This document shows positions 44,950 to 54,400 of a stretch of DNA of 64,000 bases, in pieces. Where the stretch lies: NCBI RefSeq assembly GCF_054482595.1, contig NZ_CM137008.1; one strand, given 5' to 3'. The position numbers were made by a program, and so were the translations under genes. A model generated the notes under the pieces. It was given only the letters and a program-made list of their open reading frames with translations. It was not told where the DNA came from and did no database searches. How positions within the stretch are numbered: position 1 is the stretch's first letter; every line of letters begins with the position of its first letter.

Positions 44950-45004
44950 AGATGCTAACAACGCATCAGGCATTCACGCGCCTGACGCGTCATCCGGCAA
45001 TGCT

Positions 45005-49234: not shown

Positions 49235-49380
49235 GAGGCCTTTGCTGCGACTGCCAGTCCTGGTGTCGCAGCATCGCACACTCTCCAACATGAAATGGCT
49301 AAATGGATTATTGTTGCGTAGGAAGGAACAATAATGATAGTGTTCCCAGAGAAGGAACGCTACTGAGAGTAAAGACACTA

Positions 49381-49665
49381 ATGAAAATGGCCAATCATCC
49401 CCGCCCGGGGGACATTATTCAGGAATCACTGGACGAACTTAATGTCAGCCTGCGCGAGTTTGCCAGAGCAATGGAAATTGCGCCCTCAACGGCAAGCCGA
49501 TTGCTGACCGGAAAAGCAGCTTTGACGCCAGAAATGGCAATTAAACTTTCCGTGGTGATCGGCAGTTCGCCGCAAATGTGGCTGAATCTGCAAAACGCCT
49601 GGAGTCTGGCAGAGGCTGAAAAAACGGTGGATGTGTCACGATTACGCCGTCTGGTTACGCAATAA
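49381..49665 (+). CDS. yddM: HigA-family Xre HTH protein without an adjacent toxin gene (94 aa)
   Basis: Translation [74 protein letters not shown]...; only about 146 bp separates it from adhP. Confidence 0.8.
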
Positions 49666-49717
49666 AAAAATGGCACCTTATAAAGCGCCATTTGAAACTG
49701 ATGACAAACGCAACATT

Positions 49718-49830
49718 GCCTGATGCGCTACGCTTATCAGGCCTACACGTTCACTGCAATCTATTGGATTTGAACGGTTTGTAGGCCGGATAAGGCGTTC
49801 ACGCCGCATCCGGCATGAACAAAGCCTACG
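49718..49830. repeat. REP/BIME cluster between convergent yddM and fdnI
   Basis: REP-like palindromes GCCTGATGCGCTACGCTTATCAGGCCTAC and GTAGGCCGGATAAGGCGTTCACGCCGCATCCGGC, flanked by hairpins at approx 49667-49695 and 49853-49878 that can serve as terminators. Confidence 0.75.
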
Positions 49831-49893
49831 TTGTCTACAATATGAAAATGGCGCTTCTTATAGCGCCATTTTCAGCTTAAAGTTCAAAAGAGA

Positions 49894-50547
49894 TTATATC
49901 CCTTCTTCACTCTCTTTTTTCGCTTCTGCCTTCTCGATTTCACGATACCAGCGTGGATGGTGTTTCTTCGCCCAGCGACGGCTCACCTTCCCTTCGATCA
50001 TCCCTTTAATCGATCCTTTCACCCAAAATGCCATATACATATGGATCAGGATGGCGTGGATCAGGATGATACCCGCAGCCGCGTGGATCAGCAGGCTATA
50101 ACGGACAACCTGCATCGGGAAGTACTGCGCAAAGTACGGACGCCAGATAATCACCCCGGTCACCAACAGCACGAAAATCATGCTCATGATCGACCAGAAC
50201 ATCATCTTTTGCCCGGCGTTGTACTTACCGACATCCGCCACTTTGTGCTCATTGCCTTTTAATACTTCGACAATGTTCAACAGCCACGGAATATCTTTCT
50301 TATCCGGGATGTTGTGATGCACAAAACGCACAAACATAAACATCAGTGCGACGAAAATCGCAATGCCGAAGAATGGGTGCAAAATACGTCCCATCTGCGG
50401 CGTACCGAAGGTTTGCGTCAGCCATTGCAGCGTCGGGAAGAAGAACGAAATCCCGGACAGCGCCACCAGGAAGAAGCAAATCACCACGGTCCAGTGACAG
50501 GCGCGATCAATAAATTTGGTGCGCACAATCATTTTCGACTTACTCAT
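49894..50547 (-). CDS. fdnI: Formate dehydrogenase-N gamma subunit, cytochrome b556 (217 aa)
   Basis: Translation [32 protein letters not shown]...; start overlaps the fdnH stop. Confidence 0.93.
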
Positions 50548-51436: not shown

Positions 51437-54400
51437 TTACGCCTTCTCGATGTTGACTAAGAACGCTTTATATTCCGGCGTTTGCGAGTTTGCATCACCG
51501 ACATTCGGCGTCAGAGTGTTAGCGATATAACCTTTACGCGCGACACCCTCAAAGCCCCAGTGGATTGGAATACCCACCGTTTCAACCTGCTGACCATTTA
51601 CATTCAGTGGTTTCAGACGACGCGTTACCACAGCCACCGCGCGGATAAAGCCACGCTTGCTTGAGACAGTGACACGATCGCCATTATTAATGCCTTTCGC
51701 CGCCGCCAGCGTTTCGCTGATTTCCACAAACTGTTCCGGCTGAGCAATTGCGTTGAGCAATGCGTGCTTGGTCCAGGTGTGGAAGTGCTCGGTCAGACGA
51801 TAGGTCGTACCCACATACGGGAACTGCTCTTTTTTACCCATCCGCAGTGCGTCTTGTTCATACAGACGAACAACCGGGTTAGACACCACGTTCGGATGCA
51901 GCGGGTTAGTGCCCAGCGGCGTTTCAATCGGCTCGTAGTGTTCCGGGAACGGACCTTCCGCCATTTTGTTGATGGCAAACAGGCGTCCCATCCCTTCCGG
52001 CTGCATGATAAACGGCCCGGTTGGCGTACCCGGTGCGGCATTGCCGAAGTCAGGAATATCGTTACCCGTCCACTTGCTGCCGTTCCACTGGATCAGCATC
52101 CGTTTCGGATCCCACGGTTTACCGTTGATATCCGCCGAAGCACGGTTGTACAGCACGCGACGGTTGAGCGGCCACGCCCAGGCCCATCCCAGCGTATTCC
52201 CCAGACCGGACGGGTCGGAGTTATCGCGGTTAGCCATCTGGTTGCCCTGCTCTGTCCAGCTACCGGTGTAGATCCAGCAAGAAGATGCGGTTGTACCGTC
52301 ATCACGCAGATGCGCAAAGCTACTCAGCAACTGACCTTTCTTCGCAATCAGCACGCCATTAGCATCATAGAGATCTTCCAGCGCATAGCCGTTGTTCTCT
52401 TTAGCTACTTCGTCAGATTGCGGTTCGTGCGGCTGCTTGTAGTTCCAGCTCATCTTCATCAGCGGTTCTACGCCTTTACCACCTTCGGCCTGGTACAGCT
52501 CGCGCAGGTGATGGTAGATACCCGCCAGAATTTCACCGTCGTTACGCGCTTCGCCCGGCGCATCCTGACCTTTCCAGTGCCACTGCAGCCAGCGACCGGA
52601 GTTAGCAATAGAACCATCTTCTTCAGCAAAGCAGGTCGAAGGCAGACGGAATACTTCAGTCTGAATAGACGCCGGATCGACATCGTTCGACTCGCCGTGG
52701 TTCTGCCAGAAGGTTGAGGTTTCAGTCACCAGCGGATCGATAACCACCATGTACTTCAGCTTGCTTAGGCAGCTCACCACTTTGTTTTTGTCCGGGAAGG
52801 ACGCAACCGGGTTAAAGCCCTGGCAGAAATAACCGGTGACTTTGCCTTCATCCATCATGTTGAAATACTTGATGACGTCGTAGGTCTGGTCCCACTTCGG
52901 CAGCCAGTCATAGCCCCAGTTGTTCTCTTTCTGCGCGGCATCGCCATAGAAAGATTTCATCAGGCTAACGAAGAACTTCGGATAGTTGCTCCAGTAGTTC
53001 ACCTGACCAGCCAGCGTCGCTTTCGGCGTGTTCGCTTCCAGATACGACTGCAAATCAACCTGTTTTTCTGACGGCAGCGTCAGATAACCTGGCAGGCTGG
53101 TAGAGAGCAGACCTAAGTCAGTCAGACCCTGAATGTTGGAGTGACCACGCAATGCATTCACGCCGCCACCGGCCATACCCATGTTACCGAGCAGCAACTG
53201 GATCATCGCCATAGTACGGATGTTCTGCGCACCCACGGTGTGCTGCGTCCAGCCCAGCGCGTACAGGAAGGTGGTTGTGCGATTCGGTGCGCTGGTGGAG
53301 GCCAGCACTTCACACACTTTCAGGAAGTCGGCTTTTGGCGTACCACAGATGTTTTCAACAACGTCCGGCGTGTAGCGGGAAACGTGCGCTTTCAGCAGGT
53401 TCCACACACAGCGCGGATGAGTCAGTGTTTCATCGCGTTTCGCATAGCCGTTTTCATCGAACTGATAGTTCCAGGACGATTTATCGTATTGCCGTTTTTC
53501 AGCGTCGTAGCCGCTGAACAGACCGTCTTCGAAAGCAAAATCATCACGCACCAGCAGGCTGGCGTTGGTGTAATGCTTAACGTATTCGGCGTTGATTTTG
53601 TCGTTTTCGATCAGGTAGCGCAAAACGCCAGACAGGAACGTAATGTCCGTACCGGAACGAATAGGTGCGTAAATATCCGCCACAGAAGCGGTACGCGTAA
53701 AACGAGGATCGACAACGATCAAGGTTGCATCGTTGTTGTTTTTCGCTTCCATCGCCCAGCGGAAACCGACGGGATGCGCTTCAGCAGCGTTACCGCCCAT
53801 TACCATTACGACGTTAGCGTTTTTGATATCCACCCAGTGGTTGGTCATCGCACCGCGACCAAATGTTGGAGCAAGACTTGCTACCGTTGGTCCGTGTCAG
53901 ACGCGCGCCTGGTTGTCTACCGCCAGCATCCCGAGGGAGCGGGCAAATTTCTGTGTCAGCATCCCGGTTTCGTTGCTGGCACCGGAGGCACACAGCATAC
54001 CGGTAGAAAGCCAACGGTTTACCGTTACGCCCTGCTCGTTCTTTTCAATAAAGTTAGCGTCACGGTCAGCTTTCATCAGCTTTGCAATACGGGAGAATGC
54101 TTCTTCCCAGCTAATGCGCTGCCATTTGTCAGAACCTGGCGCACGATATTCCGGGTAGCGCAGACGGTTTTCGCTGTTGACGTAATCCAGCAAACCGGCC
54201 CCTTTTGGGCACAGCGCACCACGGCTTACCGGATGATCCGGGTCACCTTCAATGTGATAAATCGCTTCTCTGGCGTTTTTCGCGCCATCACCCAGGCTAT
54301 ACATCAATAGCCCGCAACCTACGGAACAGTATGTGCAGGTGTTACGGATCTCTTTAGCGCGTAATAATTTGTAGTTTCGCGCCTGAGCCAGTGCTTGCTT

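What the first reader, a model, noticed from the sequence alone, without database searches (positions are those of the whole stretch)
49667..49880. REP/BIME cluster with flanking hairpins between convergent yddM and fdnI
Two or more REP-like palindromes in alternating orientation are bracketed by perfect hairpins (AAATGGCGC-loop-GCGCCATTT type) that can terminate yddM on the plus strand and fdnI on the minus strand. A second REP-like palindrome pair sits between convergent ddpF and osmC (approx 44960-44990).
Basis: partly seen in the sequence, partly recalled or inferred. Interest (0 to 1): 0.2.

Follow-up and report, generated by a model that had tools for sequence, protein, structure and literature searches.

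The report
BIME-1 repeat flanked by duplicated terminator
The yddM-fdnI spacer holds an ordinary E. coli BIME-1 repeat, but its two flanking hairpins are copies of the single terminator hairpin seen in strains lacking the repeat, a footprint that shows how this long-known repeat family inserts.

Summary
Window 49667-49874 contains two inverted REP palindromes (Y 49718-46, Z 49781-815) around a 34-nt IHF-type linker. This is one BIME-1 (RIB/RIP) element, between convergent yddM and fdnI of E. coli.

About 44% of 5,426 E. coli genomes have only one hairpin and no BIME here, exactly 178 bp shorter. About 38% have one unit, like the window. About 18%, including K-12, have two tandem units.

The same signature recurs elsewhere. 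A 151-154 bp element with terminal inverted repeats sits between two copies of the local terminator hairpin (16-28 nt). I saw it at about 16 other loci in Escherichia and Pseudocitrobacter. At rutG-ymdF there are empty alleles plus two independent insertions in opposite orientations.

BIME-1 therefore behaves like a miniature transposon that targets terminator hairpins and duplicates them. The cutting mechanism is inferred, not shown.

The left hairpin is imperfect. The ddpF-osmC "REP pair" is a single palindrome that fails the REP tests.

The parts
49381..49665 (+). yddM (HigA-family antitoxin-like regulator). Its stop codon TAA at 49663-49665 runs into the A-run of the left hairpin.
   Evidence: RefSeq annotation of the 100% identical strain XH990; ORF list.
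49667..49693 (.). Left copy of the duplicated terminator hairpin (AAAATGGCACCTTATAAAGCGCCATTT). It is imperfect and keeps the upstream A-run, which is the U-tract for the - strand (fdnI) transcript.
   Evidence: Inverted and direct repeats; folds of -8.2 (+) and -13.9 (-) kcal/mol; flagged as terminator-like on the - strand; single copy in empty alleles.
49694..49717 (+). Left end of the element (GAAACTGATGACAAACGCAACATT). It is the left terminal inverted repeat. From memory this is probably the 'A' extra-PU motif of BIME-1.
   Evidence: Recurs next to Y REPs at other loci; consensus and TIR alignment.
49718..49746 (-). Y-type REP (GTAG head on the - strand; CTAC at 49743-49746 on +).
   Evidence: (I2); ES036 partial hit.
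49747..49780 (.). Long linker (L) between the two REP heads. The IHF-like core CAATCTATTGGAT lies at 49757-49769. Its reverse complement ATCCAATAGATTG matches 7 of 9 specified positions of WATCAANNNNTTR; the family consensus matches 8 of 9.
   Evidence: Direct reading; family consensus. The BIME-1 L linker frequently carries an IHF site (PMC3333891).
49781..49815 (+). Z-type REP (GTAG at 49781-49784).
   Evidence: (I4); naRNA4 partial hit at 38.2 bits.
49816..49844 (+). Right end of the element (TGAACAAAGCCTACGTTGTCTACAATATG). It is the right terminal inverted repeat. From memory this is probably the 'B' motif.
49845..49871 (.). Right copy of the duplicated terminator hairpin (AAAATGGCGCTTCTTATAGCGCCATTT). 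The full perfect stem-loop spans 49843-49874. It keeps the downstream TTTT, the U-tract for yddM.
   Evidence: 22/27 identical to the left copy, both abutting the element ends.
49894..50547 (-). fdnI (formate dehydrogenase-N gamma subunit), convergent with yddM.
44962..44989 (.). Single palindrome between ddpF and osmC (CGCATCAGGC-ATTCACGC-GCCTGACGCG). It is REP-like only in its arm sequence and is not part of the BIME.

Best explanation
SHOWN. Window 49694-49844 is one copy of BIME-1 (RIB/RIP), a known E. coli repeat. It is a 151-bp non-coding element: left end, Y REP, 34-nt IHF-type linker, Z REP, right end. The whole element is an imperfect long palindrome whose ends are inverted repeats of each other.

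The element lies inside what used to be the single bidirectional intrinsic terminator shared by the convergent genes yddM and fdnI. That 27-nt hairpin is now present once on each side of it. Natural E. coli alleles carry 0, 1 or 2 units of exactly 178 bp (element plus one hairpin).

The same footprint occurs at many unrelated loci and in several species. The element is bracketed by two direct copies of the local terminator hairpin, 16-28 nt long. The duplication is symmetric about the hairpin dyad and abuts the element ends. One hairpin (rutG-ymdF) has been hit independently in both orientations.

INFERRED. BIME-1 is, or was, a non-autonomous transposable element whose preferred target is a terminator hairpin. 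Integration uses two cuts, one per strand, placed symmetrically at the foot of the hairpin. This geometry is easiest to picture on an extruded cruciform or on hairpins folded on each strand. Gap repair then copies the whole hairpin, giving a target duplication as long as the hairpin. On non-hairpin DNA only 6-8 bp is duplicated.

The enzyme is unknown. TnpA-REP (RAYT) is the obvious candidate because it binds the REPs in the element. IHF bending of the linker would bring the two ends together.

Extra units, as in K-12, arise by unequal exchange between hairpin copies or by re-insertion. Hairpin copies are also homogenised by gene conversion.

CONSEQUENCE AT THIS LOCUS (inferred). Termination is preserved for both genes, but only the distal hairpin keeps each gene's original U-tract. 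Transcripts that read through the proximal hairpin therefore carry the BIME in their 3' UTR.
For: Anatomy.

Alleles at yddM-fdnI:
- Empty allele: one hairpin and a 50-bp spacer.
- K-12: two 178-bp units.
- 3035 of 5426 genomes carry at least 1 unit.
- 2069 genomes carry the one-unit form.
- About 950-970 carry two units (minus 4).

The flanks of the insert recur at other loci next to the same REPs.

The genome-collection scan returned 48 loci. Of 54 scorable copies, 24 have flanking direct repeats above the 99th percentile of a shuffled-pair null (null mean 11.4, 99th percentile 25.5). All 24 repeats lie within 0-5 nt of the element ends and all fold as hairpins. Loop sequences are in direct, not inverted, orientation.

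Duplications are dyad-symmetric and 16-28 nt long.

Empty/filled pairs:
- rutG-ymdF has empty alleles, a reverse insertion (K-12) and a forward insertion (SCPM-O-B-8794, CUVET18-1475), each with the hairpin duplicated.
- recA-recX has a single hairpin in K-12 against 6 hairpins and 5 elements in Escherichia sp. MOD1-EC7003.
- uspB-pitA in a K-12-like genome shows the same footprint.

Short anchored duplications occur at non-hairpin sites: CCATAC and (G)ATAGCAT.

The family consensus is 154 bp including the ambiguous terminal T and A, with ends TGAGACTGATGACAA and, for the reverse-complemented right end, TCAGATTGTTGACAA. The window copy folds as a long DNA hairpin with z=-5.0. At least 36 copies per E. 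coli genome match at E<=1e-22.

Literature: BIME-1 is about 140 bp and is present or absent among isolates (PMC1187871). BIME-1 is z1 plus y with a long L linker that frequently carries an IHF site (PMC3333891).

Hairpin energies and terminator scan.
Against: No transposition event, enzyme or intermediate was observed; everything is comparative.

HUH/Y1 transposases such as TnpA-REP act on single strands and are not known to make target duplications. The published model proposes integration into existing REP/BIME targets, not terminators (PMC3333891).

About 9 of roughly 33 non-array loci show no duplication, or show a truncated element.

Polarity at this particular locus is unresolved:
- E. 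albertii and a divergent E. coli-like species carry an orthologous insertion, so the empty E. coli allele could be a secondary loss.
- Gene conversion between the hairpin copies blurs the record (O157 and B2 alleles).

The window's IHF core is degenerate (7 of 9). No RAYT gene lies next to the large arrays examined.

The right hairpin was not flagged by the simple terminator scan, because it has only 4 T.
Confidence: 0.8

Rival explanations
1. The hairpin-BIME-hairpin arrangement arose locally. A BIME inserted beside the terminator without any duplication. A later partial tandem duplication, by slippage or unequal crossing-over, then copied the hairpin to the other side. The duplication would be unrelated to the insertion mechanism.
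For: Unit number does change by local processes at this locus. K-12 and AMA1167 have two units whose copies share lineage-specific variants. The 5-unit recA-recX array shows block-wise patterns. Hairpin copies undergo gene conversion.
Against: This would need the same two-step accident at about 16 or more unrelated loci with different hairpins, always ending exactly at the element ends and never giving hairpin-BIME-hairpin-BIME remnants. At rutG-ymdF the same hairpin is duplicated around elements in both orientations, and empty alleles have one hairpin. Non-hairpin sites have short anchored duplications typical of transposition.
Confidence: 0.08
2. At the yddM-fdnI locus the filled state is ancestral. 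On this reading the 44% 'empty' alleles are secondary precise losses, by recombination or slippage between the two hairpin copies or by excision. They would not be pre-insertion sites.
For: An orthologous insertion with the same unusual linker is present in E. albertii (L010) and in a divergent E. coli-like species (L014). A 27-nt direct repeat 151 bp apart is a good substrate for deletion. Older work, as cited in PMC1187871, reports BIME-1 as present or absent among isolates. I recall that work describing whole-BIME-1 excision, from memory of an abstract I could not read.
Against: All three sampled empty alleles, from different backgrounds, share one hairpin (TTCTTAAA loop). That hairpin is not the left-of-L plus right-of-R chimera expected from any sampled filled allele. 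Conversion between copies weakens this argument. This rival concerns polarity at one locus only. It does not remove the duplication signature at other loci.
Confidence: 0.35
3. The two hairpins are independent, selected features: a dedicated terminator for each convergent gene. On this reading the REPs between them are a static structural or insulator module, and nothing here was ever mobile.
For: Convergent genes commonly each have a terminator. REP/BIMEs have reported roles in mRNA stability, gyrase and IHF binding (PMC3333891).
Against: The hairpins are 22/27 identical including loop residues and have identical register to the element ends. The 178-bp unit is present or absent as a block. 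O157 has two identical copies. Different loci duplicate different hairpins.
Confidence: 0.02

Closest known systems
BIME-1 / RIB / RIP elements of E. coli (Gilson, Bachellier, Hofnung; Boccard & Prentki; Oppenheim)
   Same: One Y and one Z REP in inverse orientation around a long conserved linker with an IHF-type site. About 140-150 bp, extragenic, at 3' ends of transcription units, dozens of copies per genome, and present or absent between isolates.
   Different: The texts I could read describe BIME-1 as occurring in single copies and give no target duplication. Here the element is bracketed by a duplicated terminator hairpin. It forms tandem arrays with hairpin spacers: 2 units in K-12, 5 at recA-recX and at least 8 at another locus in Escherichia sp. 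MOD1-EC7003.
REPIN / RAYT (TnpA-REP) system
   Same: Two inverted REPs with GTAG heads form a long hairpin-capable unit. TnpA-REP binds and cleaves y, z1 and z2 REP substrates in vitro (PMC3333891).
   Different: Y1/HUH single-strand transposition is not expected to give target duplications, and the published model has existing REP/BIMEs as targets. The footprint here is a long, structure-defined duplication of a non-REP hairpin. No link to RAYT was tested.
MITEs (miniature inverted-repeat transposable elements)
   Same: Short, non-coding, with terminal inverted repeats, flanking direct repeats, many copies and insertion polymorphism (definition in PMC3184786).
   Different: MITE target duplications have a fixed short length set by the transposase. 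Here the length follows the target hairpin (16-28 nt) and drops to 6-8 bp at non-hairpin sites. No autonomous partner with the same ends was identified.
CRISPR spacer integration by Cas1-Cas2 (analogy only, from general knowledge)
   Same: Insertion next to a partly palindromic repeat by two staggered attacks at its two borders, followed by gap fill that duplicates the whole repeat. In E. coli this is assisted by IHF. Repeated events give arrays of insert and repeat.
   Different: No Cas proteins are implicated. The duplicated unit is whatever terminator hairpin is hit, not a fixed repeat measured by a ruler. The inserted DNA is always the same element.
Mobile elements that target hairpins: class C group II introns after terminators (from memory), IS1397/IS621/ISPpu9 in REPs, REP dimers inside palindromes in other phyla (PMC3733652)
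   Same: Structure-directed choice of extragenic stem-loops as safe insertion sites.
   Different: Those elements insert beside or inside the hairpin with no duplication or a 3-4 bp one. None duplicates the entire hairpin.

Membership tests
REP (palindromic unit) sequences of enterobacteria | 30-40 nt imperfect palindrome | tested here: met
   Y at 49718-49746 and Z at 49781-49815. Inverted repeats I2 and I4.
REP (palindromic unit) sequences of enterobacteria | Conserved GTAG tetranucleotide 5' of the palindrome foot (definition: PMC3333891) | tested here: met
   GTAG at 49781-49784 (+). CTAC at 49743-49746, which is GTAG on the - strand. The K-12 allele has lost the Z-REP GTAG (TTTTCATG).
REP (palindromic unit) sequences of enterobacteria | Highly repeated in the genome, extragenic | tested here: met
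Located between two stop codons. Partial hits to REP-derived Rfam models.
BIME-1 | One y and one z1 REP in inverse orientation | tested here: inconclusive
   Y-type versus Z-type is clear from the diagnostic T/A versus G/C positions. I could not test z1 versus z2, because the published consensus figure is not held as text.
BIME-1 | Long, conserved L linker that frequently carries an IHF site | tested here: met
   34-nt linker homologous to the family consensus. The IHF core matches 7/9 in the window and 8/9 in the consensus, by direct reading against WATCAANNNNTTR recalled from memory. Binding was not tested.
BIME-1 | Occurs as single copies, not tandem arrays | tested here: met
   The window has one unit. 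The same locus in K-12 has two tandem units, and other Escherichia have 5 to at least 8. This feature is therefore not general.
BIME-1 | Size about 140 bp; presence/absence polymorphism between isolates (PMC1187871) | tested here: met
   151 bp. 0, 1 or 2 units across 5,426 genomes.
Intrinsic (rho-independent) terminator | G+C-rich stem-loop immediately followed by a U-tract on the transcribed strand | tested here: inconclusive
   The left hairpin on the - strand passes the scan (11 pairs, TTTTTTT). The right hairpin is very stable (-20.8/-20.4) but has only 4 U and was not flagged. No 3'-end data were available.
MITE-type non-autonomous transposon | Terminal inverted repeats plus flanking target-site duplication; empty and filled sites | tested here: met
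   TIR alignment. Duplications exceed the shuffled-pair null in 24 of 54 copies. Empty/filled pairs occur at three loci, including both orientations at one hairpin.
MITE-type non-autonomous transposon | A cognate transposase acting in trans | not tested
   No autonomous element with these ends was searched for successfully. ORFs next to the arrays are recA, recX and a porin, among others.
REPIN mobilised by RAYT (Y1/HUH single-strand transposition) | Insertion without target duplication | tested here: not met
   Long hairpin duplications, or 6-8 bp duplications, flank most copies.
REP (second site, 44962-44989) | GTAG head, family-level similarity, multiple copies | tested here: not met
   No GTAG. 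No Rfam REP-model hit at E<=10. Single copy. Only an 11-nt arm match.

The most novel reading that the evidence does not exclude
BIME-1 is a still-active miniature transposon of Escherichia and relatives that integrates specifically at intrinsic-terminator hairpins. It does so by two dyad-symmetric cuts at the hairpin foot, so that repair duplicates the whole hairpin. This would be a structure-measured target duplication of 16-28 nt, formally like CRISPR repeat duplication. It would explain why BIME-1/RIB elements sit at 3' ends of transcription units without destroying termination. The footprint has not been described before.
Probability: 0.35. Interest if true: 0.75.

Novelty: new variant of a known kind. 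Interest (0 to 1): 0.45.

Why it matters
How REP/BIME repeats spread has been an open question since the 1980s. They make up about 1% of the E. coli genome. The proposed RAYT mechanism has never been tied to a genomic insertion footprint.

This locus, and the roughly 16 others like it, supply such a footprint, with natural empty, filled and re-filled alleles. The target is a terminator hairpin and the duplication is the hairpin itself. That turns the question into testable experiments on hairpin or cruciform targets, on TnpA-REP and IHF dependence, and on a lineage where the element looks recently active.

It also explains two features of these elements. They accumulate at gene 3' ends, and they do so without abolishing termination. 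A practical consequence is that terminator and 3'-UTR annotation in E. coli differs between strains by whole 178-bp units.

If the footprint is already described in the 1990s literature I could not read, the finding is simply a textbook BIME-1.

Tried and rejected
- The fixed-spacing Stern REP consensus gave no match within 3 mismatches, because loop lengths differ. I replaced it with the head motif and the Rfam models.
- The K-12 RefSeq table shows no repeat features, so the annotation gave no REP names.
- Gilson 1991, Bachellier 1997 and Boccard & Prentki 1993 could not be opened. Full-text searches and reading of nine papers found no description of terminator-hairpin duplication.
- The 34-nt direct repeat over-extends the duplication. 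The extra 'CAATA' is similarity between the element's right end (CAATCTGA) and the yddM stop region. The real duplication is the 27-nt hairpin.
- An inverted-duplication (strand-switch) origin is rejected, because the loops are in direct orientation.
- The zapB locus of strain SCPM-O-B-8794 is not a simple empty/filled pair with typical E. coli. ridA-mgtA is nearly fixed, with no empty allele.
- Inferring insertion-versus-deletion polarity from the hairpin sequences failed, because the copies convert each other.
- I looked for a RAYT or transposase gene beside the large arrays and found none.
- A search for yddM literature and 3'-end data gave nothing useful.

Full report
**1. What is in the sequence**

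The window is E. coli. The region is 100% identical to strain XH990. That strain's RefSeq annotation places yddM (+, window 49381-49665) and fdnI (-, 49894-50547) convergently around a 228-bp spacer.

Reading the spacer with the repeat finder gives, from left to right:
- a hairpin at 49667-49693;
- 24 nt of unique-looking sequence;
- a Y-type REP (49718-49746, head CTAC at its right end);
- a 34-nt linker;
- a Z-type REP (49781-49815, head GTAG at its left end);
- 29 nt;
- a second hairpin at 49845-49871, whose full perfect stem spans 49843-49874.

The REP head motif occurs twice here against 0.03 expected. Both REPs hit REP-derived Rfam models below threshold. The region matches about 39 places per E. 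coli genome, which is the reporting cap.

The right hairpin is perfect (13 bp; -20.8/-20.4 kcal/mol; z about -6). The left one has one mismatch (-8.2 on +, -13.9 on -).

**2. The hairpins are one terminator, duplicated**

The two hairpins are direct repeats of each other, 178 bp apart. In many E. coli genomes the yddM-fdnI spacer is only 50 bp. There it holds a single hairpin, AAAAAAATGGCGCTTCTTAAAGCGCCATTTT, with an A-run on one side and a T-run on the other. This is a textbook bidirectional terminator.

The window equals that allele plus exactly 178 bp. K-12 equals it plus 2 x 178 bp, giving three hairpins and two BIMEs.

Counts over 5,426 complete genomes:

| Allele | Genomes | Source |
|---|---|---|
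| At least one unit | 3035 | |
| One unit | 2069 | |
| Two units | about 950-970 | difference of the above; 946 records at >=99% identity to the K-12 inter-unit junction, |
| Empty | about 2,390 | remainder; includes an allele with IS200 inserted beside the hairpin, |

**3. The same footprint occurs elsewhere**

The 'unique' 24- and 29-nt flanks of the REPs recur at other loci next to the same REPs. At ridA-mgtA the whole block is again bracketed by two copies of a different, local hairpin.

I scanned one genome per species with the left-end-plus-Y-REP pattern. This returned 48 loci in E. albertii, E. coli, E. whittamii, two unnamed Escherichia species and Pseudocitrobacter.

The element is 153-154 bp in this count, which includes an ambiguous terminal T and A, and its junctions are precise. 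Of 54 scorable copies, 24 have flanking direct repeats above the 99th percentile of a shuffled-pair control. Every one of these repeats lies within 0-5 nt of the element ends (0-2 nt except at ridA-mgtA) and folds as a hairpin. Loops are in direct orientation, which excludes a strand-switch inverted duplication.

Collapsing arrays and orthologues, I classified the roughly 33 non-array loci by eye:
- about 15 loci show a clean hairpin duplication;
- about 6 show a decayed one;
- 2-4 show a short anchored duplication (CCATAC; (G)ATAGCAT);
- about 9 show none, or a truncated element.

The duplications are 16-28 nt and symmetric about the hairpin dyad. They usually take the G+C stem plus one or two A.T pairs.

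**4. Direct evidence that insertion makes the duplication**

- At rutG-ymdF, empty alleles have one hairpin (AACCGCCGGGGTTACCGGCGGTG).
- K-12 there has the element in reverse orientation between two copies of that hairpin.
- Strains SCPM-O-B-8794 and CUVET18-1475 have it in forward orientation between two copies.
- These are two independent hits on the same hairpin.
- At recA-recX, K-12 has the single recA terminator. Escherichia sp. MOD1-EC7003 has six copies of it separated by five elements, and only the last copy keeps the T-run.
- uspB-pitA in a K-12-like genome shows the footprint too.
- In MOD1-EC7003, arrays of at least 8 units carry spacers that are terminator hairpins from other loci. 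This is what movement of composite element-hairpin-element blocks would produce.

**5. The element**

The consensus is:

TGAGACTGATGACAAACGCAAAATTGCCTGATGCGCTACGCTTATCAGGCCTACGTAATCTCTGCAATCTATTGAATTTGCATGATTTTGTAGGCCGGATAAGGCGTTCACGCCGCATCCGGCATGAACAAAGCGCACTTTGTCAACAATCTGA

- Its two halves align as inverted repeats right to the tips.
- The window copy folds as a long DNA hairpin (z=-5.0).
- The linker carries an IHF-type core: 8 of 9 in the consensus, 7 of 9 in the window.
- At E<=1e-22 every E. coli genome has at least 13 copies, with a median of at least 36.
- This 150-bp unit is therefore BIME-1 itself, not a rare subfamily.

**6. Mechanism: what is shown and what is inferred**

Shown:
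- presence/absence as a block;
- locus-specific hairpin duplication abutting the element ends;
- independence of orientation;
- dyad symmetry;
- short duplications at non-hairpin sites;
- tandem growth;
- gene conversion between hairpin copies (O157 has two identical copies; B2 strains have converted the right junction).

Inferred:
- Integration uses one cut per strand, placed symmetrically at the hairpin foot. These sites are close together if the terminator is extruded as a cruciform or folded on each strand.
- Gap repair then copies the hairpin.
- The enzyme is unknown. TnpA-REP binds and cuts these REPs in vitro, but it is a single-strand HUH enzyme. Its published model targets existing BIMEs and predicts no duplication (PMC3333891).
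- IHF bending the linker would juxtapose the two ends.

I put about 0.8 on 'BIME-1 inserted in the terminator with hairpin duplication'. I put about 0.4 on the specific cruciform/dyad-cut mechanism.

**7. Consequence at this locus (inferred)**

yddM transcripts first meet the weakened left hairpin, which is followed by GAAACUG, and then the BIME. They then reach the strong right hairpin with UUUU.

fdnI transcripts first meet the strong right hairpin, followed by UUUUCAUAUU, and then the BIME. They then reach the left hairpin with seven U, the only site the simple scan flags.

Termination capacity is thus kept for both genes, while the BIME can become part of both 3' UTRs.

**8. Polarity at this locus is unresolved**

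E. albertii and a divergent E. coli-like species carry an orthologous insertion. The insertion is therefore old, and the empty E. coli allele may be a secondary loss.

Against that, all sampled empty alleles share one hairpin, and it is not the expected left/right chimera of any sampled filled allele. Conversion between copies makes this argument weak. I leave it at about 35% for secondary loss.

**9. Comparison with what is known**

The element is a member of BIME-1 (RIB/RIP). Its size, composition, linker, location and insertion polymorphism all fit published descriptions (PMC3333891; PMC1187871).

I did not find the terminator-hairpin duplication, the terminal inverted repeats as transposon ends, or BIME-1 tandem arrays with hairpin spacers in any paper I could read. 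BIME-1 is stated to occur as single copies.

The nearest precedent is that some REP dimers in other phyla lie inside palindromes (PMC3733652). The key 1990s papers could not be opened, so prior description cannot be excluded.

**10. Second site**

Between ddpF and osmC, 44962-44989 is a single 10-bp-stem palindrome. Its arm matches a Y-REP tail 11/11. It has no GTAG, no REP-model hit and no other copies. It is not a REP pair.

Noticed in passing
window 53844-53902 (- strand): Rfam SECIS_3 at 84.3 bits, above its gathering score. This is the selenocysteine insertion element inside fdnG, and the only gathering-level Rfam hit in the 64-kb window.
   Followed up: no
window 49235-49380; loci L063, L064, L068: yddM is an orphan HigA-type antitoxin in the window. 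In B2-type strains (DLL557, Nissle derivative, U12A) a RelE/ParE-family toxin gene sits immediately upstream and overlaps its start. In U12A that gene is frameshifted. In the window and K-12 the toxin gene is absent.
   Followed up: partly
locus L002 1606-2320 (yddM-fdnI allele of isolate 68): An IS200/IS605-family element (tnpA on the - strand) is inserted in the A-run immediately upstream of the single terminator hairpin of an otherwise empty allele. From the spread sample this allele is in roughly 7% of genomes.
   Followed up: partly
locus L066 (strain AHB12): IS4 is inserted into the left hairpin copy, and no yddM is annotated on that side.
   Followed up: no
locus L006 600-660 (aspC downstream, strain D5): IS621 (IS110 family) interrupts the Y REP of a BIME-1 that sits directly after the aspC terminator hairpin.
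   Followed up: no
loci L043 7440-8320, L054 1-1270, L044-L046 (Escherichia sp. MOD1-EC7003): There are long tandem arrays of the 154-bp element with a 167-173 bp period: 5 units between recA and recX and at least 8 units at another locus. The spacers within one array are different terminator hairpins, some identical to the local terminator of other loci. The family looks recently expanded in this lineage.
   Followed up: partly
locus L061 (O157:H7) and L063/L064 (B2 strains), yddM-fdnI: In O157:H7 the two hairpin copies are identical (GGCGCCTTTTACAGCGCC). In B2 strains the right junction reads CAATAAAAAAATGG like the left flank. Both indicate gene conversion between the duplicated copies. K-12's two units both carry TTTTCATG in place of the Z-REP TTTGTAGG, whereas AMA1167's two units keep GTAG.
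   Followed up: partly
window 44961 and locus L069 (ST131); locus L070 120-160: In ST131-type genomes ddpF is not annotated upstream of osmC and dosP lies on that side. Similarity to the window starts exactly at the palindrome (window 44961). Another strain has a 17-bp tandem duplication (GCTGTAGAGATGCTAAC x2) at the ddpF stop.
   Followed up: partly
locus L060 12797-13072 (beyond fdnG/yddG): yddL is annotated as a truncated porin pseudogene in the strain identical to the window.
   Followed up: no
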